Both the position numbers and the translations under genes were made by a program. The notes under the pieces are model-generated. The model was not told the origin of the DNA. It saw nothing but the letters and a program-made list of their open reading frames with translations, and searched no databases. This document shows, piece by piece, positions 1,660-39,078 of a DNA stretch of 39,078 bases; the stretch's first letter is position 1; every line of letters begins with the position of its first letter. This stretch comes from a virus. The stretch lies in UHGV virus genome UHGV-1859364; one strand, given 5' to 3'.

Positions 1660-3014
1660 CCCTCATCACCTCCTTCATCTATTGGCAGCCAATGCCTTAT
1701 CCTGCTCCACGCTCCCATCACCGCGTACCGGATCGCATCCATGCAGTGATCATCCATTTTTACTGGCACTTCCTTACCTCTTTCAATAGATTTTTTATCA
1801 TATTCATAAGTTCCAAATTCCCGGTCTGCATTCTCCTGACTGGGATCAATCGACATCACCTCGAACGAAAGTGCTTTTTGCACTCTGCTAATGCCAAGAG
1901 CAACACTGTTATCTGCATCACGCAACTTCACAGAATATTCTAGGTTTCTCGTTGCTCTCCTGACCTCTTCCGCAAGCCCTTTTGCTGATGGATCCAGGAA
2001 CAGATAAAAAACTGATGTCCCATATTTATCCCTAATGTTTTTTGTAAAATCCACAAAGTCCCGAGCATATTCTGACGGACTTTTCTGCCGCCCGGAATCA
2101 CGCCCACTGTGGTAGTATTCTCCAAGTCCGGGGAATTTCTTGCGGTACAGATCTAGTCCGAACGCTTCGAAAGTCGTAGCATTCTGCTGTCCATAGTCTC
2201 CACCGATATAGACTCTTTCGTAAATCCGCTGTGAATCTGCTTTCTGTCTGTGCCGGCTTCCGTACATATAGTAGATCAATTCATCTACACCGATTGCTTC
2301 ACCCAGCCAAACCCATCTATACATTTTCGGATCAGATGCCTTCATAGCTTCGGCAGATGCAATCAGATCAGGTCCCAGCCATTCAACCGGAACATCCCGG
2401 TAATCCGTATGAATATGAATGCAGTCCTCTCGCTTTTCCATCTTCTTGCACCACAAATTGATGGGTGCATTCGGATTTTTGGGAGGATTATAGAGATAGA
2501 TCATCTGAAATCCCCCTTTATTTCCACGAACGAACGTCGCTTCAATATTGGTCAGTTCATCTTCTCCCTCTCCATCGTCAAAAAACTCTGTCAGCTCATC
2601 CAGCACAACCAACTTGATCGGCTTATCCTCGTCAATGATACCTTTTGTGTCGTCAATACCATCTGAACCGGCAAAGTACATCGTTGTACCATGCTTTTTA
2701 TATGTTATTTCCATCGGGGATTTTGTAATCAGGAATTTACTTTTGGGAATTTCCAACCGATTAATCCCCCTGAGCATTTCTTTGTAGACTGTTTTTCTCA
2801 GCTTATTATGGTGTTTTCTTAAAACAACAACCGATCCATTCGCATCTGATACAAGCTGATAATCCGATCTTACCGCTGCGTAGCTCGACTTCGTTCCGGC
2901 TCTTCCGGAAGTCAGTATAATGTGCTTAATATGCCGATTATTAAATATCGGCAGGTATTTCGGGATTATTATCTCCGATATCTTCACTTGCTTCTTTCGG
3001 TGCGTCATTGACAA
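1656..3014 (-). CDS. terL: Terminase large subunit (PBSX/SPP1 family). The start is TTG at 3014 or ATG at 3008.
   Basis: 452 aa with an N-terminal ATPase region and a C-terminal nuclease region (DDHCMDAIRYA). It lies downstream of terS and upstream of the portal. Confidence 0.9.
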   Translation of the reverse strand: MSMTHRKKQVKISEIIIPKYLPIFNNRHIKHIILTSGRAGTKSSYAAVRSDYQLVSDANGSVVVLRKHHNKLRKTVYKEMLRGINRLEIPKSKFLITKSPMEITYKKHGTTMYFAGSDGIDDTKGIIDEDKPIKLVVLDELTEFFDDGEGEDELTNIEATFVRGNKGGFQMIYLYNPPKNPNAPINLWCKKMEKREDCIHIHTDYRDVPVEWLGPDLIASAEAMKASDPKMYRWVWLGEAIGVDELIYYMYGSRHRQKADSQRIYERVYIGGDYGQQNATTFEAFGLDLYRKKFPGLGEYYHSGRDSGRQKSPSEYARDFVDFTKNIRDKYGTSVFYLFLDPSAKGLAEEVRRATRNLEYSVKLRDADNSVALGISRVQKALSFEVMSIDPSQENADREFGTYEYDKKSIERGKEVPVKMDDHCMDAIRYAVMGAWSRIRHWLPIDEGGDEG

Positions 3015-3495
3015 TCTCTACTCCCCCATCTTCATCTCCATCGCCGCCGCTCATCCTTGCTGTATTCGCACGGATCTGTTCAATTCTTGCCTGCTGCTCC
3101 TCTTCATCCAGTTCTGTCTTTTCCGTCCAACCCTTGAAGTTGTTTCTCAGGCTGAACTGAGCCCCGCTCGACCCGTCCCGGTCAAAGAGCCGTTCTTCTG
3201 CATACGCTTCCACCCTTGCCTTCGCACGTGTTATCGTGTTCATAAACTCCTTTTTCCCTTGATAGTTCAATAGTGACAGCCTCGTAGAAAATCCAAGGGC
3301 TAAAGCTAGTCCTGTGACTGTCGGAGGACGTTGATTGATCACTACCGGACTTCCGAATTTATTAAATATCGGCTTTCCTTCATCATCTTTCAGAATTTCT
3401 CCTTCACATTCTTTAAAATACTCTTCAATCTTTTCTTCAATTTCTTCTTTACTCTTATACTTTGGCGGTCTTCCAACCACCTTTTTTGTAGCCAT
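2941..3495 (-). CDS. terS: Terminase small subunit
   Basis: 184 aa with the N-terminal HTH-like MATKKVVGRPPKYKSKEEIEEKIEEYF typical of terS. It has an acidic C-terminus and sits immediately upstream of terL. Confidence 0.75.
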   Translation of the reverse strand: MATKKVVGRPPKYKSKEEIEEKIEEYFKECEGEILKDDEGKPIFNKFGSPVVINQRPPTVTGLALALGFSTRLSLLNYQGKKEFMNTITRAKARVEAYAEERLFDRDGSSGAQFSLRNNFKGWTEKTELDEEEQQARIEQIRANTARMSGGDGDEDGGVEIVNDAPKEASEDIGDNNPEIPADI

Positions 3496-4599: not shown

Positions 4600-4668
4600 G
4601 TATCCCAAGAAGCTTTTCACTTCTTGCATTCTAACTATAACATATTCAAAATGTTAATAATGTTAATC
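4600..4668 (-). promoter_or_regulatory. Candidate late promoter with TAACAT direct/inverted repeats (putative activator-binding site)
   Basis: The minus strand reads GATTAACATTATTAACATTTTGAATATGTTATAGTTAGAAT. There are two direct TTAACATT repeats plus an inverted ATGTTA. The element has -35 TTAACA, an 18-nt spacer and -10 TAGAAT. It lies just downstream of the RinA/ArpU-like gene and upstream of the late genes. Confidence 0.35.
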
Positions 4669-5076
4669 TTTTATAAGACTTCCAACTATCTGTGCAATTC
4701 TGCTCCTGCTATATCCCGTCATCCTCGCCACCTCTTCTTGCGTCATGTCGTCGAGATATATGGATTCCAGTATTGTTCTTTCCAGTCCTTCCGGAAGTCC
4801 GGCTATGTAAGATTCTACGGTATCCAGTTCTGCCAGTACGGCTGTCTTCTGCCGTTCTTTTTCGCTGATCCGCAGCTTGATCCGTGTCGCTTCTGCTGGC
4901 TCCGGCACTTCCACACTGATATGCTCCCGGATGTATGGAAAGTCATCCCCGGATTTTTCCACCTTCCCCGATACGGTCGGAACGCTCTCAAGACGGTCAT
5001 ACAGCCGTTCCAGTGACTGCTCAAGAGTCAGCAGTTCTTTCTTTCGCTTTTTGTATCGCCTTAGTAAGCCTTTCAT
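4663..5076 (-). CDS. Late-gene transcriptional activator, sigma-70 region-4-like (RinA/ArpU-type)
   Basis: 137 aa. The C-terminal HTH LPEGLERTILESIYLDDMTQEEVARMTGYSRSRIAQI is sigma region-4-like. It lies just upstream of the packaging module, as RinA/ArpU family genes do. Confidence 0.6.
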   Translation of the reverse strand: MKGLLRRYKKRKKELLTLEQSLERLYDRLESVPTVSGKVEKSGDDFPYIREHISVEVPEPAEATRIKLRISEKERQKTAVLAELDTVESYIAGLPEGLERTILESIYLDDMTQEEVARMTGYSRSRIAQIVGSLIKD

Positions 5077-5529: not shown

Positions 5530-5991
5530 CTATTCATAATCTTCCACCACCTCTAACTTCTTCAAATCCTCGATAAGCCACGGTTCGGAATCGCTCCATT
5601 TGACCATTGGGAAGTCGATGTTGAACATACTCACACAATTATATGTCCCATTCATCCACATCTTAAAGGGCTCAGATTTATTTGGTTTATCATCCCATAC
5701 CGAAATTGTTCCGTCACCATCTCTTGTCATCCATTTTGCACATTCTCTAAAACACTCTAAAAACGCTCTATCTCTCCTGCTTATTACTGGCTTTTCAATG
5801 TACTCTGATTCCGCCCATTCTTTAAGCGTTACCCTATACATGTTACGACAACTAAGTGTGCATTCATCACATTCGATATCAGCACATCTTACTGGCTTTC
5901 CAGTTTTTTTACTAACTGCCACACTATGTCTATCGCACGTAATTTCAACAATCTCTTTCGCAAATTTTTCTTTATTCTTCATCTCTATCAT
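5530..5991 (-). CDS. Hypothetical Cys-rich protein
   Basis: 153 aa with a CADIECDECTLSC cluster. Its start overlaps the upstream gene stop (ATGA). Confidence 0.55.
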   Translation of the reverse strand: MIEMKNKEKFAKEIVEITCDRHSVAVSKKTGKPVRCADIECDECTLSCRNMYRVTLKEWAESEYIEKPVISRRDRAFLECFRECAKWMTRDGDGTISVWDDKPNKSEPFKMWMNGTYNCVSMFNIDFPMVKWSDSEPWLIEDLKKLEVVEDYE

Positions 5992-6458
5992 TCTCCCTTA
6001 TATGGCTCTGGTAGTGGCATCCAAGCAATAACACAATCTCCGTTCAATGGGGCATCTTCGATGCTTATCAATGCATTCACTTGTTCGTCACTATCTAAAT
6101 GCCATATTTTTTGTACCGCATCATAATTTGCATACATTACATATTCTTCATCGTACGGAGCATCGCATATATCATACGTTGATGTCGGACAATGGCTTCT
6201 CATTACACTGACAATGCATCTTGCCCAATATGAATCTCCTTTCGGTCTAGGTAATCTATCACTGCATGAAATCCACTCACCATGAAGATTGTTCGCTCTT
6301 ACCTTTTTCGATAATGTTTCGATTGTGTTAATGGCATCTCTAATATCTTTCGCCCATAAATCTTGCAAATTGCCGATATCCATATCAAGCTCTGGGTCTG
6401 TCTCAAGGCGTTCCGCTATGTTTGCAAGTAATTTCATCTGTTCACTTATCATGCTCAT
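5988..6458 (-). CDS. DUF551-like phage protein
   Basis: 156 aa. GEWISCSDRLP...WMPLPEPYKGE matches the W-I-S-x-x-D-R-L-P signature of DUF551. Confidence 0.55.
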   Translation of the reverse strand: MSMISEQMKLLANIAERLETDPELDMDIGNLQDLWAKDIRDAINTIETLSKKVRANNLHGEWISCSDRLPRPKGDSYWARCIVSVMRSHCPTSTYDICDAPYDEEYVMYANYDAVQKIWHLDSDEQVNALISIEDAPLNGDCVIAWMPLPEPYKGE

Positions 6459-6493
6459 GATTCCACCTCTTTCTTAAATACATTTCGCACATA

Positions 6494-8104
6494 TTATGCA
6501 AATCTCATCTGTCCTGTCTGTTCCTCTGCAATCCGCAAATTTCCAACTCGCTCAGCCACGCATAGCTCTGGCAGGTTCGCCCTTACCATCGCTGCAGGTA
6601 TCGGCGGACAAACCGCATTACCGCATCTTTTAACCTGTTCACTTCTCGGATATGTCTTGCCGGTATAGTCATGGTCGATTATGTAATCATCCGGAAATCC
6701 TTGGCAACCATACAGTTCCTTCGGTTCCAGCATCCGAAGTCCGATATCTACAATCTGGTAGTCAACACCTTCAATTGTCACAAGTCCGAATCTATCCTTT
6801 GTCGTTACTGTGTCAAGTGGCTTTTCAATATCTTGTCCTGTAGCATCTCCATAATATTTAATCAAAAAGGCTCTTACTTCTCCAAAATGTCCGGGCGATG
6901 TTGTAATCGTGTGCAAAGGTTCTCTGATATCCTGTCCGGTTCCGCTCTTGTAAAACTTGCTTAGGAACGATGTGACCAGTCCATATCTATTCGAACCATC
7001 CACTGTCATAATCGGGTCTTTAATTGTCTGTCCTCTGACTTCATCCTTGGAAGTCTCCGAATGGTACTGAATCAGAGTCGGCGCAAGTTTTGGTTCAATT
7101 AGACAATGCTCATTCTTGCTGACTATCGTAGTAAGAGGTTCCCGAACATCCTTGCTTCTGTCCTTTGCGAACCCTGTCTGTCCAATCTGCACCAAATACG
7201 GCTCTACAACTCCAAATCCATGTTTTCCGGTTATGGTCGGCATCGGTTCACGTATATCCTGCGGTCTACGCTCTCCACCGTGATTGCACTGAACGATGAA
7301 CGGTTCCGGATTATCCAGAACGAATTTCTTCAATCCTCTTGCAATCCTATCCATTGTCTTCGGTGCCAGCGGGCGTACCGCTCTGATTCCATATTTCTCT
7401 TTTATTTCTTCCGAAGTATCAAAAATGGATGGACACGGCCGGCTGAAATCAATCTGTGTATATGCTCCAACATAAGGTCTCAAACGTCCTAACTTTACTT
7501 CATCGCTATCTGCCGGTGCATGAGTCGGTTCTGGCCAGACGATCGGATTGCCATCACATCTCGCAATCATGAAGAATCTCTTTCGCATGGTCGGTGCGCC
7601 ATAATCAGCTGCCACCAGTTCGTTAAATTCAACTTCATATCCTAGCCGCCGGAGCTGCTCTACGAATTTATCGAATGTTACACCCTGTTTCTGCTTAATT
7701 GGTCTATGGGACCTGTTCAACGGACCCCATGTTTTAAATTCTTCCACGTTCTCTAACATGATCACTCTCGGTCTGACAAGTCCTGCCCATCTAAGAGCAA
7801 CCCATGCAAGACCACGAATGTTCTTATCTTTCGGTTTTCCGCCTTTTGCTTTGCTGAAGTGTTTGCAGTCCGGCGAAAACCAGGCAAGTCCGACTGGATG
7901 TCCGTTGCACGCCTTTACCGGATCCACGTCCCACACGCTTTCACAATAGTGCTTCGTGTTCGGATGATTCGCCTTGTGCATTCGGATGGCTTCTGGATCG
8001 TGATTGATTGCGATGTCCACGCTATATCCAGTTGCCATCTCCATTCCAGTGCTTGCCCCGCCGCCGCCTGCAAAGTTGTCTACTATCAATTCTCCGTTAA
8101 TCAT
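6494..8104 (-). CDS. DNA (cytosine-5)-methyltransferase with five tandem TRD-like repeats (possibly multispecific). An alternative GTG start at 8131 is possible.
   Basis: Motif I DNFAGGGG, PC motif FSPDCKHFS and ENV motif VIMLENVEEF are present. The C-terminal half carries five ~35-aa repeats with consensus D(I/V)REP(L/M)xT(I/V)T......FG(L/V)V. The last merges into the QGFPDDY motif. Confidence 0.85.
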   Translation of the reverse strand: MINGELIVDNFAGGGGASTGMEMATGYSVDIAINHDPEAIRMHKANHPNTKHYCESVWDVDPVKACNGHPVGLAWFSPDCKHFSKAKGGKPKDKNIRGLAWVALRWAGLVRPRVIMLENVEEFKTWGPLNRSHRPIKQKQGVTFDKFVEQLRRLGYEVEFNELVAADYGAPTMRKRFFMIARCDGNPIVWPEPTHAPADSDEVKLGRLRPYVGAYTQIDFSRPCPSIFDTSEEIKEKYGIRAVRPLAPKTMDRIARGLKKFVLDNPEPFIVQCNHGGERRPQDIREPMPTITGKHGFGVVEPYLVQIGQTGFAKDRSKDVREPLTTIVSKNEHCLIEPKLAPTLIQYHSETSKDEVRGQTIKDPIMTVDGSNRYGLVTSFLSKFYKSGTGQDIREPLHTITTSPGHFGEVRAFLIKYYGDATGQDIEKPLDTVTTKDRFGLVTIEGVDYQIVDIGLRMLEPKELYGCQGFPDDYIIDHDYTGKTYPRSEQVKRCGNAVCPPIPAAMVRANLPELCVAERVGNLRIAEEQTGQMRFA

Positions 8105-8108
8105 CCAA

Positions 8109-8366
8109 TCACCACCAATCCTGACTTGCACTTGAATTACCCATGATTCCGTTACTCATTGCTGTTGTCTTGCCATTTGCTCCGTAAGCATATCTAAGTC
8201 CTTTATCTGCATTGATTCCTTGCCAGTGCATGTTGCCCTCATGCAAGACAATCAGGTCATTCATACTGTAGTCCTCTTTCGGATTCAGCTCTACATACTT
8301 TTCAGCACCTTTTTTCGTACCGTATCCGCATTTCTGCACGGTCTTTATAAATTCTTCTGCTGTCAT
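8109..8366 (-). CDS. Hypothetical protein
   Basis: 85-aa ORF with an ATG start. It lies immediately upstream of the methyltransferase. Confidence 0.45.
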   Translation of the reverse strand: MTAEEFIKTVQKCGYGTKKGAEKYVELNPKEDYSMNDLIVLHEGNMHWQGINADKGLRYAYGANGKTTAMSNGIMGNSSASQDWW

Positions 8367-16294: not shown

Positions 16295-17167
16295 ATGAAA
16301 AAGATTTTGACATTCCTTTTAATTGGAATGCTTATGCTGTCCTGCACAGCTCTAACGGGATGTGGCAAAAAAGAAAGTTCAAAGACAGAATATACTATGG
16401 ATGAGTTCGCTGATATGTATAACGAAACTCAATCGCTTTTTAAAAAAGAAGCTGAAAAAGCATACCTTACTGATGAGGAGCGTTATTCAGAAAAAGGACA
16501 ACAGCTTTATAAAAAATGTTCCGAAAAGACTGGCTTGCCTTTTGACAAAGAACTTACTCTTCGTGGTGTAAAATATCAGGGATACGACTGTGTAAATCTG
16601 AAATCCAATGATGAAAAGACTTCCGTTGAATGTTTCTTTGCCCAGTCTGTTGATAATTTTTGGATATTGATACCTGATGGAACTACGATTTCAATCAAGG
16701 GAACTTTTTCACCGGAATCAGCCCCTGGGGCTTATGGGACGCTGTGTGATGTAAGACTTGTGTCTCCTGATATTGACATCAAATATGAACCTACGGACAT
16801 TAAAGACGCATTAAAAGTAATCACTAATGAGCAAGGTTATGAGAGCGACATTATTATTGAAGGCGAAATTTCTGAAATCATGACCCGTGATGAAGTGGAA
16901 GAAATAGTGGGCGGGTATGTTGATATCTCTTCTGCATTGCATGACGATGCTGCACTGATAAAGGGCGAGGATGGGAGTATTATTATCTTTTATGACAAAA
17001 CCTTTACTGGTGAACTGACTGCCGGGGATAAAATAGCTGTTCAGGGAGCGTTGCAAAATGGATTCGGATATGAAAATCCTGCTACAAAAAAATATTCCTG
17101 CCTAATAGGTGTGATGCCTGATGTTGATAATTGCTACAACTTTACAGCACATCAAGACGATGAATAA
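16295..17167 (+). CDS. Lipoprotein moron (candidate lysogenic-conversion or superinfection-exclusion protein)
   Basis: The signal peptide MKKILTFLLIGMLMLSCTALTGC carries the lipobox LTGC. RBS AAGAGGAGG and an extended -10 (TGgTATATT) lie upstream. It sits between integrase and repressor, the slot used by Ltp-type exclusion lipoproteins. Confidence 0.75.
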   Translation: MKKILTFLLIGMLMLSCTALTGCGKKESSKTEYTMDEFADMYNETQSLFKKEAEKAYLTDEERYSEKGQQLYKKCSEKTGLPFDKELTLRGVKYQGYDCVNLKSNDEKTSVECFFAQSVDNFWILIPDGTTISIKGTFSPESAPGAYGTLCDVRLVSPDIDIKYEPTDIKDALKVITNEQGYESDIIIEGEISEIMTRDEVEEIVGGYVDISSALHDDAALIKGEDGSIIIFYDKTFTGELTAGDKIAVQGALQNGFGYENPATKKYSCLIGVMPDVDNCYNFTAHQDDE

Positions 17168-31296: not shown

Positions 31297-31827
31297 TTAT
31301 TCCCCCTCTGTAAATGCCTTGGTTGCTGTGTTGAACGTACCCTTTACCCAGTCAGTCTTGCCAAGCAGGTTGCCGGACCCCTGGATCTCACCGTCATTGT
31401 CCTTGAATTCTGAAATTTCAACCGCAACTTTTCTCCGCTTTGCCTCATAAGTTCCAGCTGATTCGCTTACCGGTTTGTCCAGGTATACCTTCACGTAAAA
31501 TGTATCAGCCTCCACCCCGGTCTTTTCGTTCTCGCCGATCTCCGAAATGTAAGCGATTGCCGGTTCACTCTGGATCAGATCAAACTCAAGTGGTGCTGTC
31601 CATTCATAACCGCCAATGCTCTGTGTTGCACTTTTCTGATTGACGTATCTCTTTGACGTAGTCTGTGCGGACGGTGAATCATCCAGCTGAGTCACGCCAA
31701 TTCCGAGGAGCTCATATTTCGGGGAATCAGATCCCCCTGTAACGTCAATGTAATCTGCACGCTGGTAACGCTGCGTTACACCGGTGTCTTTTGCTGCTTC
31801 AAAAATCTGTAAATTCATTCTTTTCAT
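31297..31827 (-). CDS. Major tail protein. The start is trimmed to MKRMNLQIFEAAKD.
   Basis: RBS GGAGGT lies 6 nt upstream of the ATG at 31827, and the longer ORF has no RBS. It shares the L27-like leader (NLQIFE) with the capsid and scaffold proteins. Confidence 0.6.
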   Translation of the reverse strand: MKRMNLQIFEAAKDTGVTQRYQRADYIDVTGGSDSPKYELLGIGVTQLDDSPSAQTTSKRYVNQKSATQSIGGYEWTAPLEFDLIQSEPAIAYISEIGENEKTGVEADTFYVKVYLDKPVSESAGTYEAKRRKVAVEISEFKDNDGEIQGSGNLLGKTDWVKGTFNTATKAFTEGE

Positions 31828-33386: not shown

Positions 33387-34367
33387 TTATTCTCCCGCTT
33401 TCAGGATCGCAAACGGGCATCTCTTGGTCTTATCTTTTGCAAGAGCATTGATTGGATTCGGGATTTCCCATCCAAGACGCATCACCGCACGAAGAGCAAT
33501 CATATCATTCTGCATCAGGTTGTATGCGATAGTTCCATCGGTGTTCTGAATCACGCCTTCCGTGAATAACTTGAATGTAATATCCTGTCTGATGGAATAT
33601 ACAAGCTGAGAGAAGTCTCCTGAAATCATCAGTGCCTTTGATTTGTCAAACGCTCCGTTGTTTGGGAAATTCATCGGAGAGCCATCTAAAGCATACTGCG
33701 TTGTTCCCTGCAGATCCTGTTTGAACAGCGGATCACCATTCGCATTCTTCAATCCCCTGAGCTTTGCCCTCATGGAGATATCTGCCATGTGACCATTCAC
33801 AAAGTAGCCGGATCCCTCGACTTTTGCGATGACACCATCTTCTGCCATAATCTTGTCATAAAGGCTGTCAGATGCTCCGAGTGTTACGACTGCACTCGCC
33901 TTTGTTGCAGTTGCAACAACATCTTCTCTCCATGTTGACGGCTTATTTTCTCCAAAAAGCACCGCTCCATCAATGACTTTTCCAAATGCTTCTGTTACTC
34001 TTGGCTTTACTTCTGACCAAATATCATATTCTGAATCATCCAATACGGCTTCTGGAATCGGAACAATTACCGCAATTTCTTCTGCGGTGATAAATTTCTT
34101 GTCCCACTCCTGCTTTGCTGTCTTTTTCTGACCGTTATCTCCGTTTACGAAATACGCAATCGGTAACATATCCAGAACTGGCATTTTATACTGTTTACTT
34201 GTCATATTCGCCAGCTTACGTCCTCTTGACAGAACTGCTGACTGTGCGATCGTTCCCTGGATGATCTCGTTGGATTCCTGAATCGGAATTAAAGCCTCTG
34301 CCCCGCTACGATCAATGATATTTACGTCTGTTTCAAATAATTTTAAATTCATTCTGGTTCTGTTCAT
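33387..34367 (-). CDS. Major capsid protein (HK97-fold, SPP1/80alpha-like)
   Basis: 326 aa following the scaffold gene. The N-terminus MNRTRMNLKLFETD carries the L27-like leader. Confidence 0.85.
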   Translation of the reverse strand: MNRTRMNLKLFETDVNIIDRSGAEALIPIQESNEIIQGTIAQSAVLSRGRKLANMTSKQYKMPVLDMLPIAYFVNGDNGQKKTAKQEWDKKFITAEEIAVIVPIPEAVLDDSEYDIWSEVKPRVTEAFGKVIDGAVLFGENKPSTWREDVVATATKASAVVTLGASDSLYDKIMAEDGVIAKVEGSGYFVNGHMADISMRAKLRGLKNANGDPLFKQDLQGTTQYALDGSPMNFPNNGAFDKSKALMISGDFSQLVYSIRQDITFKLFTEGVIQNTDGTIAYNLMQNDMIALRAVMRLGWEIPNPINALAKDKTKRCPFAILKAGE

Positions 34368-34379
34368 CTTCTACCTCCA

Positions 34380-34985
34380 TCACTTTCTTGCTGCAGCACG
34401 GATACGTTCATTGATAGAAGCATTCATGCTTCCACCAGCTCCCTCCGAAGAGCTTCCTGAAGACGTAGACACCCGATACGTGCCACTGCCTGTATATTTC
34501 GGGTTTTCTTTCAAATACTGTTCTGCAGCTTTTTCAAATGTTGTCTTGTCGTTTACAAGTTTCGATACCTTGAACATGACATAATCAAGATCCTCTGTCT
34601 TCACACCTTTACCTGACAGAAATTTCTCATTTTTCATCTGCTGAACTTCCTTCAAAGCGTCATCACGTTCTTTCTGCAGCTTTGCCGTGTCCGGCTGATT
34701 TGCTGCACGTTCTGCCTTGAATCTTGTGATTGCTTCTGTGACTTCTCCCTCTGTCATTCCCTGACCACGGAAAAAGCTTGCAAGAGCTGCACGTTCCGAC
34801 TTGCTTGCCCTGGCACTTGCAATTTCTTCCAGCTGTTCATAGGTATAAGTTCCGGAATTGGAAGCTCCGGATGTGCTTCCAGCGGATCCATTACCGCTGT
34901 TCCCAGTCCCGGCATTTCCACTCTGTCCACCAGAGCCAGCTCCGCTGCCGTCCTCGAAAAGCTGTAACATCATTCTTTTTCTCAT
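34380..34985 (-). CDS. Scaffolding protein
   Basis: 201 aa with an N-terminal leader MRKRMMLQLFEDG. A Gly/Ser-rich linker is followed by a charged coiled-coil region. It lies immediately upstream of the capsid gene. Confidence 0.7.
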   Translation of the reverse strand: MRKRMMLQLFEDGSGAGSGGQSGNAGTGNSGNGSAGSTSGASNSGTYTYEQLEEIASARASKSERAALASFFRGQGMTEGEVTEAITRFKAERAANQPDTAKLQKERDDALKEVQQMKNEKFLSGKGVKTEDLDYVMFKVSKLVNDKTTFEKAAEQYLKENPKYTGSGTYRVSTSSGSSSEGAGGSMNASINERIRAAARK

Positions 34986-35042: not shown

Positions 35043-35070
35043 GGCAAAAGAAAAACACCCCTCAGGGTGT
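35043..35070 (-). terminator. Hairpin plus U-tract after the Prp gene (partial terminator or attenuator within the late operon)
   Basis: ACACCC-tga-GGGTGT (35055-35070) is followed on the minus strand by U-rich TTTTTCTTTTGCCC. Confidence 0.45.
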
Positions 35071-35073
35071 CTC

Positions 35074-35361
35074 CTACAAAAATGTTATACAATTATATTC
35101 CCGGTTGATATCTGTCAATCCGAGAAACCACGAATCTAGCAGCAACTTCCCTCTGTCAGAAAGCCGCTCCCATTCGATCACGGTTCTTCCGCTCCCGGTA
35201 TCTGCCCTGATCCGGTCACCTGTCAGATCATTCAGCGAATTGATCAGGTTGCAGGTGAGAGCGGATACCGCTGCACATGCCCGGTCAATACCATCTGACC
35301 CTTTTCGGCAGGCATGGCCTTTTAATGCAAGCATGTCCTCTCGGACTTTCACCTCAATCAA
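35074..35361 (-). CDS. prp: Prp-like cysteine protease (DUF464; ribosomal-protein L27 N-terminal processing peptidase homolog)
   Basis: MIEVKVRED...KGHACRKGSDGIDRACAAVSALTCNLINSL matches the Prp/YsxB signature GHA...G.DIVCAAVSAL, including the His-Cys dyad. Confidence 0.8.
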   Translation of the reverse strand: MIEVKVREDMLALKGHACRKGSDGIDRACAAVSALTCNLINSLNDLTGDRIRADTGSGRTVIEWERLSDRGKLLLDSWFLGLTDINREYNCITFL

Positions 35362-35424
35362 ACAATCACTCCTTTACATTTCCGGTCATTCCCCGCCGGT
35401 GGGAGATATCGGATCACCGCCTTT

Positions 35425-35874
35425 CTATGGATAGTCGTTTGCCATCATTTTCTCGAGATACCATTTTTTTAATTGTTTTTCATTGTCAATCTGTCGCTCT
35501 ATCATTTCGATTTCGTTATCGATCATTCTGATCTGTTCTACAATGTATCGCTGGTCTTTCTCGTTGTCATGCCAGTCTAAAATAAAATTTACGAGAGTAC
35601 TAAACTGCAGATTGATTGTAGTCCTATATCTTCTTAAAAAATCTGGAAATACTCTTTTGATAGCTATGTAAAGGTAATCACAATCCACTTCTTTTTTCGG
35701 TTCAAACACTGCAAATCGGCTGTCTATGTTCCCAGCTTCCTTGATCTGTCCGACGAACTCATCGACTGCACTCAATTTAATAAAGCATGTACCGGCTTTA
35801 TATTTCTTTCCTGATACAGCTCTCTCAACAATGCACACTTCACTGATATTTCTTTTTCTGCATCTTAATTTCAT
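35425..35874 (-). CDS. hsdS: Type I restriction-modification specificity subunit, half-size (single-TRD HsdS)
   Basis: 149 aa with one TRD (ISEVCIVERA..G..YKAG.., YLYIAI) and the conserved C-terminal helix TTINLQFSTL...IVEQIRMIDNEIEMIERQIDNEKQLKKWYLEKMMA. It overlaps the hsdM stop. Confidence 0.7.
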   Translation of the reverse strand: MKLRCRKRNISEVCIVERAVSGKKYKAGTCFIKLSAVDEFVGQIKEAGNIDSRFAVFEPKKEVDCDYLYIAIKRVFPDFLRRYRTTINLQFSTLVNFILDWHDNEKDQRYIVEQIRMIDNEIEMIERQIDNEKQLKKWYLEKMMANDYP

Positions 35875-37097
35875 GTCCAGCTCAACTCCAACTGATCATA
35901 TTGTTTCTTTTCTGTTTTCCTTCTTTGCTTTGGATTTAAAATGATCTTATGCATCTCAATGGCATTCATATCCTCAGCGTTTCCAGTTAAATCCTGCAGC
36001 ATTTTATATAGCTCGTCTTTAACTTTTTTCTCTTCTTCGTCAATTTCTCTAAGATTCGTCAAAATCTTTCGTACATCTGGCAAAGGTTCATGCACGAAGC
36101 TGTCTACATACCTTGGTATGTTCAAATTGAAATCATTCTTTTCAATTTCCGAATAACTCGTAATATGCGAGTATCTCTCCACTTCTTGTCTGTTTAAAAA
36201 AGTATCTACAACTTTACCGGTCTGCTGTTCTGTCATATCGTTTTGTGCAGATTTTTTTATGAAATCTTTGCTCGCATCTATAAAAAGTATGTCCGGAGAA
36301 TCATATTGCAAAATTAAAACGAAAACCGGAATACTTGTATTTAAGAACAACTTATCCGGAAGTCCTATTACCGCATTGATTAAGCGCTCTTGCACTAACC
36401 ATTTTCGGATATCTCCTTCACCTGCCCCACGGAATAAAACACCATGCGGAAGAATTGCGATCAGTCGCCCGCCTCTGTTTAGATGCTCTAATCCACGTAA
36501 TATGAATCCATAATCTGCTTTACTTTTCGGTATTTTATGTCCCATGATTCTCATCTCATCCGCCTCCGGAAATTTCATGGAATACGGTGGATTCATGATT
36601 ACATTATCAAAACATCCTGCTTCTTGTCGTTCCTGTAAGGATACGATACTGATACCGCCCCGCTCTTCAAGTAAGTAGGTTTCCTGTACTGTATTCCTCA
36701 GACAATCCGCCTTGCTTATCGTGCCTTGCATACCGTTCATACATGCGTCCAGAATGGCAAATGGAATCGTCCTTTCAGAAAATTCCTGTTCGTTAATTTC
36801 AATCCCACGTTTTAATGCAGCCATTTTACTCAGAGCTCCTGTTCCGGAACACATATCCAAACAAGTACCGTCAATCATTAGATCGGCTACAATAGAGCAG
36901 ATGCAATCGGGTGTAAAATCTTGCTTTAAACTTTTTCTATCTCCCTGCTCTTCCTGGAACATATCCCGAATATCGCAAGAAATTTGTTCTTTAATCTGCG
37001 TGATAGTCTTTTCTGCATCCGGTGATAATAACATCTCCATTATTTTGTCCGGAAGCCGGTAAGATTCTTTTACGTCAAAAAACTCCTGAAGTGTCAT
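35871..37097 (-). CDS. hsdM: N6-adenine DNA methyltransferase, Type I HsdM-like
   Basis: Motif I DMCSGTGAL, motif IV VIMNPPYS and the HsdM-like FTPDCICSIVADLM are present. The start at 37097 (MTLQEFF) has RBS GGAGAGG 7 nt upstream. No hsdR lies nearby. Confidence 0.8.
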   Translation of the reverse strand: MTLQEFFDVKESYRLPDKIMEMLLSPDAEKTITQIKEQISCDIRDMFQEEQGDRKSLKQDFTPDCICSIVADLMIDGTCLDMCSGTGALSKMAALKRGIEINEQEFSERTIPFAILDACMNGMQGTISKADCLRNTVQETYLLEERGGISIVSLQERQEAGCFDNVIMNPPYSMKFPEADEMRIMGHKIPKSKADYGFILRGLEHLNRGGRLIAILPHGVLFRGAGEGDIRKWLVQERLINAVIGLPDKLFLNTSIPVFVLILQYDSPDILFIDASKDFIKKSAQNDMTEQQTGKVVDTFLNRQEVERYSHITSYSEIEKNDFNLNIPRYVDSFVHEPLPDVRKILTNLREIDEEEKKVKDELYKMLQDLTGNAEDMNAIEMHKIILNPKQRRKTEKKQYDQLELSWT

Positions 37098-37164
37098 ACC
37101 ACAACCTCTCCTCGCCTTAAAAATGGGTACAAAAATACCACTCACTCTCTCGAATGGGTGGTAT

Positions 37165-37422
37165 CTATTCAATTTGTTTCATTTCATCTTCTATTTCTTC
37201 TCTTTTCCAACCTTCCTCTGAGAGAATATCTAAGATTTCTTCCGGCTCACACAATATCTCTTCCAATTTCCAAATTCTTTCACGCAAGTGTGTTCTTCTG
37301 ACGGCAAATTCTATTTCTTCATCAGAATCCCCTAGCCTTCTAAAAACATCTTTCATTTCCTCATCTTCAATTTCCTGAAGTTTTTTATCGATATCAGGTG
37401 TATCTGGGTCAAACATTGTCAT
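37165..37422 (-). CDS. Highly acidic small protein (candidate DNA-mimic / anti-restriction or packaged protein)
   Basis: 85 aa with more than 35% Asp+Glu (EIEDEEMKD...SDEEIEF...EEILCEPEEILDILSEEGWKREEIEDEMKQIE). Its ATG overlaps the MuF stop (TAATG), with RBS GGAGGG 6 nt upstream. Confidence 0.5.
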   Translation of the reverse strand: MTMFDPDTPDIDKKLQEIEDEEMKDVFRRLGDSDEEIEFAVRRTHLRERIWKLEEILCEPEEILDILSEEGWKREEIEDEMKQIE

Positions 37423-39078
37423 TATAATCCCTCCATGATTTCTTCGAGTATTTCACCAAAGATTCTTGCTGCTTCTCGTGGTTTTTTACTAGTCATATAT
37501 TCAGAAAAACATTCCGCAAAGAACTCTCGCTCATTTTTGTAAGCGTATTCTGAAATATGCTTTGTGATGAATTCCTTTTTAGAAAAATCTAACGCATCGT
37601 TCAGTTCTCGTCCTTTGTAGCCCATTCTAGTCCAGTCTGCACGCTCCGCACGTGTATAATCAAAATATCCTAATCTTTGTAAGACTTCTCTCCTAACTGC
37701 TACGCTCGTCCTTGTTACACCATATTTTTCTATCTTTCCTCCATATATACCTTTCCATGTAAGGTAACCATCTAACTGATGTCCCATTTCATGAACGATT
37801 ATACTGTCGGCGGTAGTTCCAAGTGGAGAAAATCCAATTTTTATATAATGCTCATATTTTTTCTTTAACTTTTCGTAATCCGAAAAATAGGAACTAAGTT
37901 TAATAACACCATGCATAGAACTGCTTGAGGCAATCGACTTCAAATCTGAATCATATATGATTTTATTTGTATATCCTTTGAGCTGCGGAAATTTGTCAAA
38001 TACTTTCTTAATTCCATTATATACCGATTTTCTTGATTTTTCATCAACTTTACTGAAATCAATTTTATCCTTACCGATACCCATTACTTTTGATAATTTT
38101 GACTTTTCAAACAAGTTATCTGTACTGGAGGCTTTTATAACCATTTTTCTGGATATTTTTCCAGGTGCAACCCTGCCTTTCATATCCAAATAAATTCTTT
38201 CACGTTCCTGTTTAAGTCCCATTTTCTTCGAGAACCTTGCATACTCATCTAACTGTCCTTGGTACTTACATCGAGCTAACATAACATCATCCGGATCAGC
38301 ACCGCATTTTTGCAATAGCTGCACCTTTTCACGCTGTGCCCGCATAGCAGTTTCCATTTGACGCTGCCGTTGTTTTGCTTCGTAAAGAGTGTATTCTTTA
38401 CCACGGAACTCGGTCGGCTCGCTTTCTTTCCGATTCTGTTCGTCTAGCCAGTCATCCGTATAAGCTCGTACCGATACACCGGGAACAAAAGGGAAGTAAG
38501 TATGGTAGCAGTTTGCTCCACATAGTCCGGTTACTGTACCGAGTCCACAGACATCATACAATTGCTGTTGACTCCACACTCTGCCCTGCCATATCGTATG
38601 CGTTGGTCTCGCCCCTGCGTGCCATTCCACTTCAAAATATTCCGTACCGAGCTTTTCAGCATTATATTCCGCAATCTTCCCAGAAAGCTGCGTCAGTCCG
38701 GTCATGACAGCCCGTCTTGCTGCGACCTCGATTCGATTTGCATACCCCGATGAATATTCTATCTGCCGAAGTCCGCTATTCGTGAGCTGAGTGACTACCC
38801 GCCGGAGAACTGTATTATAATCAAATGCTCCTGTGACAATGTCCATGCAGGCATTATCGAGATACCCACTGTATACCTGTGACAATGGAGTTAATACCTT
38901 TCTGCCACCGTAATCCAAATAAAAGCCTAGAGATCTTGTAATATTTTCCAAGTCCTCAAGGCTTTGCTTTTTGATAGCTGATGTCACCTGTATCAGATGT
39001 TCATTTTCTTCAAAAGGTATGTATTCCGCATTGATCTGTTCATAGAGGTCCTTGTTCCTGACGTATTCCCAGTCGATC
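37422..39078 (-). CDS. Minor head protein, SPP1 gp7 / Mu F-like with a C-terminal HExxH metallopeptidase-like domain. This is the 3' part of the gene that starts at 242 and wraps across the junction.
   Basis: The reading frame is open to the window edge and is in frame with 242..1; the joined gene is 1899 nt (632 aa). The Mu F core is ARPTHTIWQGRVW...GANCYHTYFP. The C-terminal ~300 aa contain IIVHEMGHQL and the downstream EREFFAECFSEYM, an HExxH...E zinc-peptidase signature. Confidence 0.8.
   Translation of the reverse strand, partial: IDWEYVRNKDLYEQINAEYIPFEENEHLIQVTSAIKKQSLEDLENITRSLGFYLDYGGRKVLTPLSQVYSGYLDNACMDIVTGAFDYNTVLRRVVTQLTNSGLRQIEYSSGYANRIEVAARRAVMTGLTQLSGKIAEYNAEKLGTEYFEVEWHAGARPTHTIWQGRVWSQQQLYDVCGLGTVTGLCGANCYHTYFPFVPGVSVRAYTDDWLDEQNRKESEPTEFRGKEYTLYEAKQRQRQMETAMRAQREKVQLLQKCGADPDDVMLARCKYQGQLDEYARFSKKMGLKQERERIYLDMKGRVAPGKISRKMVIKASSTDNLFEKSKLSKVMGIGKDKIDFSKVDEKSRKSVYNGIKKVFDKFPQLKGYTNKIIYDSDLKSIASSSSMHGVIKLSSYFSDYEKLKKKYEHYIKIGFSPLGTTADSIIVHEMGHQLDGYLTWKGIYGGKIEKYGVTRTSVAVRREVLQRLGYFDYTRAERADWTRMGYKGRELNDALDFSKKEFITKHISEYAYKNEREFFAECFSEYMTSKKPREAARIFGEILEEIMEGL

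What the first reader, a model, noticed from the sequence alone, without database searches (positions are those of the whole stretch)
35425..37097. Type-I-like HsdM methyltransferase plus half-size HsdS embedded in the head-morphogenesis operon, with no HsdR
An NPPY/FxGxG N6-adenine MTase with the HsdM-like FTPD motif sits with a 149-aa single-TRD HsdS. Half-S subunits dimerise to recognise symmetric bipartite targets. The pair lies between the MuF/acidic genes and the Prp protease, inside the late structural operon rather than in the early or moron regions where phage MTases usually sit. Late co-expression with packaged head proteins suggests either methylation of progeny DNA just before packaging or a Dar-like encapsidated methyltransferase that protects incoming DNA. 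Together with the early multispecific C5-MTase, the phage carries two orthogonal self-methylation systems.
Basis: partly seen in the sequence, partly recalled or inferred. Interest (0 to 1): 0.7.

Follow-up and report, generated by a model that had tools for sequence, protein, structure and literature searches.

The report
Phage methylase with half-size specificity subunit
A common gut prophage carries a two-gene adenine DNA methyltransferase (a cut-down Type I M subunit plus a one-domain S subunit) as a swappable cassette inside its head-gene operon, most likely to methylate its own DNA against host restriction; it is a trimmed, phage-borne member of the known 'Type 1½' methylases, not a new kind of system.

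Summary
On the minus strand, 35871-37097 encodes a 408-aa HsdM-like gamma-class N6-adenine methyltransferase. 35425-35874 encodes a 149-aa protein that Pfam misses, but profile, structure-model and fold searches identify it as a single-TRD, single-helix HsdS. The two genes overlap (ATGA). They lie between MuF/acidic ORF and Prp. The window is a complete circular phage genome with no HsdR or recognisable cognate nuclease.

The pair is a low-GC 1.7-kb cassette. Near-identical sister phages have an empty slot or a different small ORF there. Relatives of the cassette (about 1,000 clusters of mini-S, always after a ~405-aa M, sometimes fused M~S) lie mostly in early regions or just before terS. They also lie between TerL and portal, and between portal and ClpP.

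The best reading is an orphan 'Type 1½' (M.AhdI-like) methylase, assembling as 2M+2S on a symmetric interrupted palindrome, made with late genes to protect progeny DNA. Activity, stoichiometry and target are inferred, not shown.

Nothing supports a Dar-like packaged enzyme. Orphan methylases in packaging modules already have precedent in lactococcal 936 phages.

Verdict: new member of a known kind, with modest interest.

The parts
35871..37097 (-). M subunit: 408-aa short-form HsdM-like gamma-class N6-adenine DNA methyltransferase. It has an N-terminal helical bundle at aa 1-50, a Rossmann catalytic domain at about aa 60-335, C-terminal helices at aa 342-369 and 374-387, and a disordered basic tail.
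   Evidence: Pfam N6_Mtase 1.3e-49. TIGR00497 hsdM scores 125 bits, below its 242.75 cut-off, and aligns only to profile positions 197-513. PDB 3lkd 1.3e-50. PADLOC MTase_I 4.6e-65. AF2 pLDDT 86. Top Foldseek hits are HsdM chains. FTPD, motif I and NPPY are invariant in the family. No homologue carries HsdM_N.
35425..35874 (-). Mini-S subunit: 149 aa, with one target-recognition domain (about aa 1-101) and one long coiled-coil-type helix (aa 105-146). Its ATG overlaps the M stop codon (ATGA).
   Evidence: No Pfam hit. Profile against PDB hits HsdS 1yf2 at 1e-7. PADLOC Specificity_I 8e-7. AF2 pLDDT 90.4. Top seven Foldseek hits are HsdS, followed by the half-S homodimer Esub1. Related M~S fusions and two-TRD S proteins pass Pfam Methylase_S.
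37098..37164 (-). Upstream intergenic region. It holds the backbone hairpin plus T-run (37157-37138) and then the cassette's own ribosome-binding site, GAGGAGAGG (37113-37105), 7 nt before the M ATG. The left cassette junction lies at about 37116.
   Evidence: Sequence. Terminator-like site. The hairpin and T-run are conserved in the cassette-less L016 and in L017, and similarity ends at the RBS. No promoter-like site lies in this gap, and promoter hits in the region do not exceed shuffles.
35362..35424 (-). Downstream intergenic region and right cassette junction. The sequence from the S stop codon to the Prp start is shared with L017, which carries a different cargo ORF in the slot.
   Evidence: Alignment A2. 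ORFs of L017.
37165..37422 (-). Left flank of the slot: an 85-aa acidic ORF (30 D/E, 13 K/R) directly after MuF.
   Evidence: Conserved at 99-100% in sister phages with and without the cassette.
37422..39078 (-). MuF-like minor head protein. The 632-aa gene continues across the window end to position 242. Its C-terminal part is an ATLF-like metalloprotease domain (HEMGH).
35074..35361 (-). Right flank of the slot: Prp-type cysteine protease, followed by scaffold (34380-34985) and major capsid (33387-34367).
6494..8131 (-). Second methylation system of the phage: a 545-aa C5-cytosine MTase in the early region, with 4-5 tandem TRD-like repeats. Context only; it is not part of the cassette.
   Evidence: Pfam DNA_methylase 4.6e-26. 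Repeats at aa 292, 328, 401 and 434.

Best explanation
The two genes encode an orphan, phage-borne adenine methyltransferase of the 'Type 1½' (M.AhdI-like) architecture in a minimal form.

Shown:
- M is a short HsdM that lacks the HsdM N-terminal domain but keeps the catalytic domain and C-terminal helices.
- S is a single TRD plus one conserved-region helix.
- The genes are translationally coupled.
- They form a 1.7-kb low-GC cassette in a cargo slot of the late head operon.
- The phage has no HsdR and no recognisable cognate nuclease.

Inferred:
- Two S chains pair their helices antiparallel, and each recruits one M through its C-terminal helix, giving 2M+2S.
- The complex methylates one adenine in each half of a symmetric interrupted palindrome.
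- The genes are transcribed with the late packaging and head genes. They are therefore silent in the lysogen, and the enzyme modifies replicated phage DNA before packaging.
- Progeny then resist host restriction systems that share that target.
For: Identity of M.

Identity of S as a half HsdS.

Functional link between M and S:
- S always directly follows a ~400-415-aa M, with overlapping or near-overlapping stop and start, in every context examined.
- About 12 of the 150 listed relatives are 553-606 aa with mini-S at the C-terminus. Five of these were scanned, and all are N6_Mtase~mini-S fusions.
- Two S proteins (P0116, P0236) combine a mini-S TRD with a canonical Methylase_S TRD.

Half-S dimerisation and 2M+2S on symmetric targets have precedent:
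- M.AhdI (PMC2878638).
- M.BsaBI and M.PshAI, and the homodimeric M~S gamma-MTases (PMC3874165 sections 34-35).
- The Esub1 half-S crystal and SEC-MALS homodimer (PMC11754733), which is among the fold hits.

Orphan status:
- The whole circular genome was scanned without finding HsdR or a nuclease.
- The only sizeable unknown ORF (290 aa, 16295-17167) is also present in a cassette-less sister phage.

Cassette nature:
- L015 and L016 have MuF 99%, the acidic ORF 99% and capsid 100% identical, but no M/S.
- L017 carries a 68-aa ORF between the same flanks.
- GC is 38% in the cassette against 44% for the genome and 49% for Prp.
- Cassette DNA is 100% identical in nine contigs whose scaffold and capsid differ by 2-4%.

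Late expression:
- Same strand as the head genes, with gaps of about 65 nt.
- M has its own RBS.
- No promoter-like site lies upstream.
- In L008 the M start overlaps the portal stop. In L103 M starts 10 nt after TerL.

Anti-restriction by orphan MTases in packaging modules has been shown experimentally in 936 phages (PMC4190342).
Against: No activity, target motif, stoichiometry or expression data exist for this protein pair. All of these are inferred from homology.

M lacks about 115 residues of the canonical HsdM N-terminus, and the TRD is only about 100 aa, against about 150 or more in solved HsdS. Assembly or recognition could therefore differ from M.AhdI.

In the close family the TRD is more conserved than the helix (0.645 against 0.435 pairwise identity). 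This is the reverse of classical HsdS, so specificity diversification does not follow the usual pattern.

A weak hairpin plus T-run just upstream (37157-37138) could attenuate read-through from the MuF transcript.

The restriction system being evaded is unknown.
Confidence: 0.72

Rival explanations
1. Specificity add-on for a host Type I system. The phage M and/or mini-S would combine with a chromosomal HsdR (or HsdM) and give the lysogen a new restriction specificity, so the pair would act in defence rather than in anti-restriction.
For: Orphan plasmid-borne HsdS subunits are known to do this in Lactococcus. The idea has also been raised for prophage-borne S and M genes of Clostridium clostridioforme (PMC11318856, read). 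Two S proteins (P0116, P0236) join a mini-S TRD to a canonical TRD, which shows that the TRD also occurs in full-size S subunits.
Against: M lacks the HsdM N-terminal domain in all ~120 listed homologues. No HsdR was seen beside the pair in any locus examined. The genes sit in the late operon with no promoter of their own, so they are not expected to be expressed in a lysogen. A cassette that brings its own M does not need a host M.
Confidence: 0.07
2. Dar-like packaged enzyme. M/S would be incorporated into the capsid and ejected with the DNA, to protect or modify the incoming genome.
For: The pair sits next to portal, MuF or prohead-protease genes in three unrelated head modules (window; L008-L010; L103-L106). 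MuF-type proteins are themselves packaged (general knowledge of SPP1 gp7).
Against: Most family members are in early regions, in MTase islands or upstream of terS. Sister phages assemble with the same head genes without the cassette. No targeting extension is evident. The N-terminal 'MTLQEFF' resembles the Prp-type motifs of scaffold and capsid. However, it is conserved in family members from ClpP-type phages and is modelled as part of a helix bundle. De novo methylation after injection would be slow compared with restriction.
Confidence: 0.04
3. Regulatory or epigenetic role. Methylation would control packaging initiation, late gene expression or the lysis-lysogeny decision, as Dam does at the P1 pac site, rather than protect against restriction.
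For: The pair is repeatedly placed inside or immediately before the terminase-portal-protease block. The TRD is unusually conserved across the close family, which would fit a fixed phage-internal target.
Against: The cassette is dispensable: sister phages at 99% identity lack it. It moves between unrelated phages with different packaging enzymes (Terminase_3/SPP1 portal against TerL_ATPase/HK97 portal). It often lies beside other MTases, as expected of anti-restriction islands.
Confidence: 0.08
4. Inactive remnant of a host R-M system carried passively by the prophage.
For: Some relatives have a frameshift-split M (L006, L010/L095). The N-terminal domain of M is missing.
Against: The catalytic motifs are invariant in 28 homologues at 54-72% identity. 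Sizes are uniform, about 405 and 145 aa, across hundreds of clusters. The exact protein is listed in 4,798 blocks of the public assembly collection. The truncation is a property of the whole family, not a lesion.
Confidence: 0.05

Closest known systems
'Type 1½' methyltransferases (M.AhdI, M.BsaBI, M.PshAI)
   Same: Separate M (HsdM-like gamma-class) and S subunits, where S is a single TRD plus a helix, that is, half a classical HsdS. The known enzymes are 2M+2S and act on symmetric interrupted palindromes such as GACN5GTC (PMC2878638; PMC3874165 section 35). The adjacent M then S gene order is the same.
   Different: Those enzymes belong to R-M systems with a Type IIP endonuclease (plus a C protein in AhdI). 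This pair is an orphan on a phage. M.AhdI subunits are 60 and 25 kDa, whereas here they are 408 aa (about 47 kDa by calculation) and 149 aa (about 18 kDa). M lacks the HsdM N-terminal domain and the TRD is about 100 aa. No biochemical data exist for this pair.
Classical Type I R-M methyltransferase (HsdM2-HsdS1, e.g. EcoKI, EcoR124I)
   Same: Homologous catalytic domain and C-terminal assembly helices in M. A homologous TRD fold and conserved-region helix in S. Overlapping, translationally coupled hsdM-hsdS genes (PMC3510504; PMC6158711).
   Different: No HsdR, no HsdM_N domain, and one TRD instead of two. TIGR00497 scores far below its cut-off. The TRD is more conserved than the helix.
Homodimeric gamma-MTases with a fused C-terminal TRD (M.XmnI, M.DrdI, M.XcmI)
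   Same: Relatives of this pair exist as single M~mini-S chains of 553-606 aa, which matches the composite architecture described in PMC3874165 section 34.
   Different: In the window the two parts are separate polypeptides. The named enzymes are the modification halves of Type II systems.
Orphan MTases in the packaging module of lactococcal 936-type phages (M.Phi145I/M.Phi93I, M.Phi93DAM)
   Same: Phage orphan MTases inserted in a hotspot within the packaging genes and shown to protect against restriction (PMC4190342). This is a precedent for late-module placement.
   Different: Those are single-chain Type II alpha/beta-class enzymes located between terS and terL. Here the enzyme is a two-subunit Type I-like gamma-class MTase located between MuF and Prp.
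Esub1 of Streptococcus pyogenes (PDB 8VSQ/8VSR)
   Same: A half-size HsdS-like protein with one globular head plus one helix. It is experimentally a homodimer through that helix (PMC11754733). It is a fold match to the mini-S model.
   Different: Esub1 is about 190 aa, has an extra insertion helix, is encoded away from any M gene, and did not clearly bind HsdM. Mini-S is always coupled to an M gene.
Phage P1 Dar (DarB) encapsidated anti-restriction system
   Same: Phage anti-restriction linked to head morphogenesis.
   Different: From general knowledge, DarB is a very large methyltransferase/helicase-type protein packaged with the help of other Dar proteins. No similarity, partner genes or targeting signal were found here.

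Membership tests
Type I R-M methyltransferase (HsdM/HsdS/HsdR) | Gamma-class N6-adenine MTase catalytic domain with motif I and NPPY | tested here: met
   Pfam N6_Mtase 1.3e-49. The motifs are invariant in alignment A4. Fold hits are HsdM chains.
Type I R-M methyltransferase (HsdM/HsdS/HsdR) | HsdM N-terminal domain (PF12161) and a full-length match to the hsdM equivalog | tested here: not met
   No HsdM_N hit. TIGR00497 scores 125.5 bits against a cut-off of 242.75 and aligns only to profile positions 197-513.
Type I R-M methyltransferase (HsdM/HsdS/HsdR) | S subunit with two TRDs and two conserved regions | tested here: not met
   149 aa. The model shows one globular domain and one helix. 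PDB alignments cover one TRD and one CR only.
Type I R-M methyltransferase (HsdM/HsdS/HsdR) | HsdR motor/nuclease subunit encoded with M and S | tested here: not met
   Scans of the larger ORFs of the complete circular genome gave no ResIII/helicase-nuclease hit. None was seen next to the pair in related loci.
'Type 1½' MTase (M.AhdI-like) | Separate M and S genes, with S a single TRD plus a dimerisation helix | tested here: met
   Family-wide sizes are about 405 and 145 aa.
'Type 1½' MTase (M.AhdI-like) | 2M+2S stoichiometry | not testable with these tools
   Only single-chain prediction is available. The stoichiometry is inferred from M.AhdI (PMC2878638) and the Esub1 homodimer (PMC11754733).
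'Type 1½' MTase (M.AhdI-like) | Methylation of a symmetric interrupted palindrome | not testable with these tools
   This needs a methylome or in vitro assay. No TRD of known specificity was found among the relatives.
'Type 1½' MTase (M.AhdI-like) | Partner Type IIP endonuclease (R-M system) | tested here: not met
   No nuclease was detected in the phage. The unassigned 290-aa ORF does not co-vary with the cassette. The pair is therefore an orphan version.
Phage orphan (self-protective) DNA methyltransferase | MTase encoded in a phage genome without a cognate endonuclease | tested here: met
   The phage genome is complete. Cassette presence or absence varies among sister phages. No nuclease was found.
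Phage orphan (self-protective) DNA methyltransferase | Methylation of phage DNA that confers resistance to a host restriction enzyme | not testable with these tools
   This requires a methylome and plating assays.
Dar-like encapsidated anti-restriction proteins | Protein present in virions, delivered with the DNA and dependent on head-assembly partners | not testable with these tools
   No proteomics are available. Indirect evidence argues against it: genomic positions vary and no targeting extension is seen.

The most novel reading that the evidence does not exclude
This short-M/mini-S family may be a phage-specialised minimal methylase that is repeatedly selected for insertion inside the terminase-portal-protease block. 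Three independent junctions were seen: TerL|portal, portal|ClpP and MuF|Prp. Its action would be coupled to packaging in one of two ways. Either it methylates DNA as it is being encapsidated or is carried into the capsid, or it marks a conserved phage-internal site that gates packaging. The unusually conserved TRD would then reflect a fixed target rather than an arms-race specificity.
Probability: 0.08. Interest if true: 0.6.

Novelty: new member of a known kind. Interest (0 to 1): 0.3.

Why it matters
1. Annotation. The mini-S partner is invisible to Pfam. It is labelled 'hypothetical protein' in NCBI (WP_302179291.1) and in cultured Streptococcus phages (IPP23, IPP16, phiZJ20091101-4). Many phage 'orphan HsdM' genes therefore probably have an unrecognised specificity subunit, and about 1,000 clusters of such proteins exist.

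2. A testable prediction. This very common human-gut prophage should carry a phage-specific, symmetric bipartite m6A motif. The motif should be absent from its 99%-identical cassette-less sisters, which form a natural isogenic pair for measuring the cost and benefit of self-methylation. The motif could also be used to link phage and host in metagenomic methylomes.

3. Enzymology. The pair is a natural minimal version of the Type I methylase core: 47 kDa M without the N-domain and an 18 kDa S. That is of interest for the proposed Type I to Type II evolutionary series (PMC6158711).

4. Phage genome architecture. The MuF-to-Prp interval of this phage group behaves as a cargo slot. It carries the MuF toxin domain, the acidic ORF, then either the methylase, another ORF or nothing.

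Tried and rejected
- Pfam and NCBIfam on the 149-aa ORF gave nothing, even at E=10. Homology appeared only with a family profile, PADLOC models and structure.
- Megablast of the region against 50,697 phage records found no match.
- The genome-contig scan gave only 3 loci, which name Lachnospiraceae, a 'Bacteroidaceae' bin and Bilifractor porci. The host species of this exact phage remains 'Bacillota'.
- Contexts of distant mini-S relatives (P0093, P0116) were on contigs too short to show whether any sit in full R-M systems. The restriction system being evaded could therefore not be identified.
- I considered the 290-aa unknown ORF by the integrase as a hidden cognate nuclease. This was rejected because it is present at 96% identity in the cassette-less sister contig.
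- I considered M's N-terminus (MTLQEFF) as a Prp cleavage or targeting signal like MMLQLFE and MNLKLFE of scaffold and capsid. This was rejected as probably coincidental because it is conserved in family members from ClpP-type and early-region contexts and is modelled as a helix.
- I looked for a cassette-specific promoter. No site lies in the upstream gap, and counts equal those in shuffles.
- dN/dS on close copies was uninformative: at most one synonymous difference in 1,673 nt.
- The review by Murphy et al. 2013 on phage orphan MTases is not held in the library.
- I made no attempt to predict the recognition sequence, because no TRD of known specificity was found among the relatives.
Full report
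**1. What is at the coordinates**

All genes in this part of the window are on the minus strand. In transcription order they are:
- MuF-like minor head protein, 37422 to the window end;
- an 85-aa acidic ORF, 37165-37422;
- a methyltransferase, 35871-37097 (408 aa from the ATG used by gene callers; the longest ORF starts at a TTG at 37172);
- a 149-aa ORF, 35425-35874;
- Prp protease, 35074-35361;
- scaffold, 34380-34985;
- major capsid, 33387-34367.

Joining the end of the window to its start restores an intact 632-aa MuF that begins at wrapped position 242, next to the portal stop. It is 627/632 identical to a metagenomic copy. The window is therefore a complete, circularly permuted 39,078-bp temperate phage genome. 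It holds TerS, TerL and an SPP1-type portal at 244-3495, an early region at about 4.6-14 kb, and a lysogeny module with CI-like repressor and integrase on the plus strand at 15.3-18.5 kb.

**2. The methyltransferase**

The 408-aa protein matches several resources:
- Pfam N6_Mtase at 1.3e-49;
- PADLOC Type I MTase models, up to 4.6e-65;
- the solved HsdM of S. thermophilus (3lkd) at 1.3e-50, plus EcoR124I and PacII M subunits.

The FTPD motif, motif I (LDMCSGTG) and NPPY are invariant in 28 homologues of 54-72% identity.

It is not a full HsdM. The hsdM equivalog TIGR00497 scores 125 bits against a cut-off of 243 and aligns only to profile positions 197-513. None of the ~120 listed homologues, all about 390-440 aa, carries the HsdM_N domain.

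The AlphaFold model (pLDDT 86) shows:
- a small four-helix N-terminal bundle (aa 1-50);
- the Rossmann domain;
- C-terminal helices at aa 342-369 and 374-387;
- a disordered basic tail.

Its best fold matches are HsdM chains.

**3. The 149-aa ORF is a half-size HsdS**

Pfam and NCBIfam find nothing, even at E=10. Single-sequence phmmer against the PDB gives only a marginal hit to the M. jannaschii HsdS (1yf2, E=0.01).

Evidence from the family is much stronger:
- A search found 92 homologues of 143-150 aa, one of which JGI names 'restriction endonuclease S subunit'.
- A profile of 34 of them hits 1yf2 at 1e-7, followed by three other HsdS structures.
- Ten PADLOC Specificity_I models match, the best at 8e-7.
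- The AlphaFold model (pLDDT 90.4) is one beta-rich globular domain (aa 1-101) followed by a single 42-residue helix (aa 105-146).
- Its top seven Foldseek PDB hits are all HsdS subunits (TM-score normalised to the query up to 0.73). They are followed by Esub1, a half-size S-like protein solved as a homodimer (PMC11754733).

An exhaustive profile search finds 1,073 clusters (256 at E<=1e-10), almost all 135-165 aa. About a dozen are 553-606 aa. The five of these that I scanned are all N6_Mtase~mini-S fusions, and in two of them Pfam Methylase_S passes its threshold over the mini-S part. Two proteins of about 345 aa combine a mini-S TRD with a canonical Methylase_S TRD.

The gene fusions tie S functionally to M.

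**4. Gene organisation**

The S start codon overlaps the M stop (ATGA), as in classical hsdM-hsdS pairs, which are translationally coupled (PMC3510504; PMC6158711). M has a strong ribosome-binding site (GAGGAGAGG) 7 nt upstream of its ATG.

No sigma-70-like site lies in the 67-nt gap upstream of M, and promoter-like hits in the region are no more frequent than in shuffled sequence.

A weak hairpin with a T-run (37157-37138) lies between the acidic ORF and M. The same hairpin is present in sister phages that lack M/S, so it belongs to the backbone.

**5. No HsdR and no cognate nuclease**

Pfam, PADLOC and PHROG scans of the larger ORFs of the whole genome found the following, but no ResIII/helicase-nuclease and no recognisable restriction enzyme:
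- a C5-cytosine MTase;
- a DUF927 primase-helicase;
- an ERCC4-type nuclease in the replication block;
- an integrase and repressors;
- lysis genes.

The one sizeable unassigned ORF (290 aa, 16295-17167) is also present at 96% identity in a sister phage that lacks the M/S cassette. It therefore cannot be a nuclease that depends on this methylase.

**6. The pair is a mobile cassette in a cargo slot**

I retrieved eighty viral contigs that share the scaffold gene.
- Four of them (L018-L021) and four metagenome or genome contigs from a separate look-up (L011-L014) carry M/S at 100% protein identity.
- Two (L015, L016) have MuF at 99%, the acidic ORF at 99% and capsid at 100% identity but no M/S. 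There the acidic ORF is followed after 62 nt by Prp.
- L017 has a different 68-aa ORF in the same place.

Junction alignments show that the left flank, including the hairpin and T-run, is shared by all three types up to the ribosome-binding site. The right flank, from the cargo stop codon to the Prp start, is shared between the window and L017.

The cassette has 38.2% GC, against 44.3% for the genome and 47-49% for Prp and scaffold. The adjacent MuF C-terminal domain and acidic ORF are also low at 35%.

Cassette DNA is 100% identical in nine contigs, and differs by one synonymous base in three others. The scaffold and capsid genes of these contigs differ by 2-4%, which indicates recent spread.

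The exact S protein is listed in 4,798 blocks of the public assembly collection, including a 2.9-Mb NCBI contig. NCBI lists it as WP_302179291.1, 'hypothetical protein [Bacillota]', next to WP_302179292.1, 'N-6 DNA methylase'.

**7. Where relatives of the cassette sit**

In every locus inspected, mini-S directly follows a ~400-415-aa M. Positions of the pair differ:
- At the end of the early region, or just before DUF1492/HNH/TerS: L004-L007, L097 and many IMG/VR loci.
- In early-region 'methylase islands', directly followed by a 484-aa C5 MTase or a second N6-MTase-like ORF.
- In the early region of cultured Streptococcus prophages IPP23, IPP16 and phiZJ20091101-4. There M is annotated as a Type I M subunit and S as hypothetical.
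- In a ParB/Rep element.
- Twice more inside packaging/head blocks of unrelated HK97-type phages:
  - Between portal and ClpP protease in L008-L010 and L095. The M start overlaps the portal stop, and the relative L102 has portal followed directly by ClpP.
  - Between TerL and portal in L103-L106 and L131, with gaps of 10-17 nt.

The late-operon position in the window is therefore real and recurs. It is a minority placement for a cassette that moves around.

**8. Mechanism**

Shown:
- a short HsdM;
- a single-TRD S with one helix;
- coupled genes;
- orphan status;
- the cassette nature;
- a late-operon position without a promoter of its own.

Inferred from named precedents:
- Half-S subunits dimerise through their helices. 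Examples are the engineered EcoR124I and EcoDXXI deletions, natural M.AhdI/M.BsaBI/M.PshAI, and Esub1.
- The resulting 2M+2S enzymes methylate symmetric interrupted palindromes, for example GACN5GTC (PMC2878638; PMC3874165 sections 34-35; PMC11754733).
- The C-terminal region of HsdM mediates assembly with S (cited within PMC2878638), and that region is retained here.

The most likely function is self-methylation of replicated phage DNA during the late phase, before packaging, to evade host restriction. This has been demonstrated for orphan MTases inserted in the packaging module of lactococcal 936 phages (PMC4190342).

Late operons of Gram-positive phages are driven from a promoter upstream of terS by small activators of the RinA, ArpU and DUF1492 families (PMC3753634). 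The window encodes a Sigma70_r4-type 137-aa protein at 4663-5076, upstream of terS. That fits this scheme, but it is an inference.

From my own knowledge, mutations in the missing HsdM N-terminal domain of EcoKI relax that enzyme's preference for hemimethylated DNA. Its absence would suit a de novo methylase that needs no HsdR, but I could not test this.

**9. Unusual details**

In the close family (at least 43% identity to the window protein) the TRD core is more conserved than the helix: mean pairwise identity 0.645 against 0.435. There is a near-invariant RTTINLQ motif. This is the opposite of classical HsdS, where TRDs are hypervariable, and it suggests one shared specificity within this clade. 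Across the wider family (26-43% identity) only a structural core is kept.

The subunits are clearly smaller than those of M.AhdI, which are 60 and 25 kDa (PMC2878638).

**10.

'Two orthogonal self-methylation systems' is supported. The 545-aa C5 MTase at 6494-8131 is real. It has four strict and one degenerate tandem ~36-aa repeats of the type D[IV]xEP[LM]xT[IV] between the ENV and GNAV motifs. From my own knowledge, this resembles the multiple TRDs of SPbeta-type multispecific enzymes.

The Dar-like encapsidation idea has no support. Genomic positions are variable, sister phages use the same head genes without the cassette, and no targeting extension is seen. The N-terminus MTLQEFF superficially resembles the Prp-type motifs of scaffold (MMLQLFED) and capsid (MNLKLFET). 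However, it is conserved in family members from ClpP-type phages and is modelled as a helix.

**11. Verdict**

This is an orphan, phage-borne, minimal version of a known enzyme class, the Type 1½ M+half-S methylases, sitting in a late-operon cargo slot. Both components of the idea have precedent: half-S methylases, and orphan MTases inside phage packaging modules.

What is new is modest:
- an unannotated, Pfam-invisible mini-S family, about 1,000 clusters in size, paired with N-terminally truncated HsdM;
- its recurrent insertion at three different junctions of packaging/head operons;
- a natural isogenic pair of a very common gut prophage with and without the cassette.

Activity, target motif, stoichiometry and expression timing remain untested.

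Noticed in passing
window 1-39078 (junction 39078|1): The window is a complete, circularly permuted phage genome. The MuF gene runs across the end and start (start wraps to 242, next to the portal stop at 244) and gives an intact 632-aa protein.
   Followed up: yes
window 37422-38330 and 37165-37422 (-): The C-terminal third of MuF is an ATLF-like zinc-metalloprotease domain (HEMGH at aa 510). It is followed by an 85-aa acidic ORF (30 D/E). Both have 35% GC, and most related phages share only the MuF core. This looks like a MuF polymorphic-toxin domain with a possible immunity or inhibitor partner.
   Followed up: partly
window 6494-8131 (-): The 545-aa C5-cytosine MTase has four strict and one degenerate tandem ~36-aa repeats (D[IV]xEP[LM]xT[IV] at aa 292, 328, about 366, 401 and 434) between the ENV and GNAV motifs. 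This suggests several target-recognition domains, that is, a multispecific enzyme.
   Followed up: partly
L017 6302-6621 (ORF 6362-6568); L015/L016 (L016 6563-6624): The slot between the acidic ORF and Prp holds a different 68-aa ORF of unknown function in one sister phage and is empty in two others, with shared flanks. It behaves as a cargo-exchange site in the late operon.
   Followed up: partly
window 35425-37097, compared with L011-L014, L018-L021 and L107-L110: The M/S DNA is 100% identical in nine contigs (one synonymous change in three others), while the neighbouring scaffold and capsid genes differ by 2-4%. This implies recent horizontal spread or a sweep of the cassette.
   Followed up: partly
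window 34985, 34367 and 31827 (N-termini, - strand): Scaffold (MMLQLFED), major capsid (MNLKLFET) and a third structural protein (MNLQIFEA, probable true start at 31827) share an N-terminal motif. It resembles the L27/Prp cleavage signal known from Staphylococcus phage 80alpha, so these are likely Prp substrates.
   Followed up: no
window about 35045-35071 (-): A GC-rich hairpin (ACACCC-TGAG-GGGTGT) followed by TTTTTCTTTT lies directly after the Prp stop and before the scaffold gene. It looks like a terminator or attenuator inside the head operon. The automatic scan did not list it.
   Followed up: no
L121-L125, L132, L135, L136, L139, L142, L143, L148-L150, L158 (about 6596-8050); L159-L168: In many IMG/VR phages the M/mini-S pair is immediately followed by a 484-aa C5 MTase or by a second N6-MTase-like ORF (DNPPF motif). 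These form multi-methylase islands in the early region.
   Followed up: partly
L103-L106, L131 (M-S at about 5799-7441); L008-L010, L095 (6781-8438): The same cassette family is inserted between TerL and portal, and between portal and ClpP protease, in unrelated HK97-type phages. Gaps are 10-17 nt at the TerL|portal site. At the portal|ClpP site the M start overlaps the portal stop. The relative L102 lacks the portal|ClpP insertion.
   Followed up: partly
window 16295-17167 (+): A 290-aa ORF beside the integrase has no informative family hit in Pfam or PADLOC, and only weak N-terminal matches to PHROGs of unknown function. It is present in sister phages with and without the M/S cassette. It is a possible lysogeny-module moron of unknown function.
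   Followed up: partly
L006 3150-4381; L010/L095 6782-8010: In some relatives the M gene is split into two ORFs by a frameshift while mini-S stays intact. This is either occasional decay of the cassette or sequencing error.
   Followed up: no
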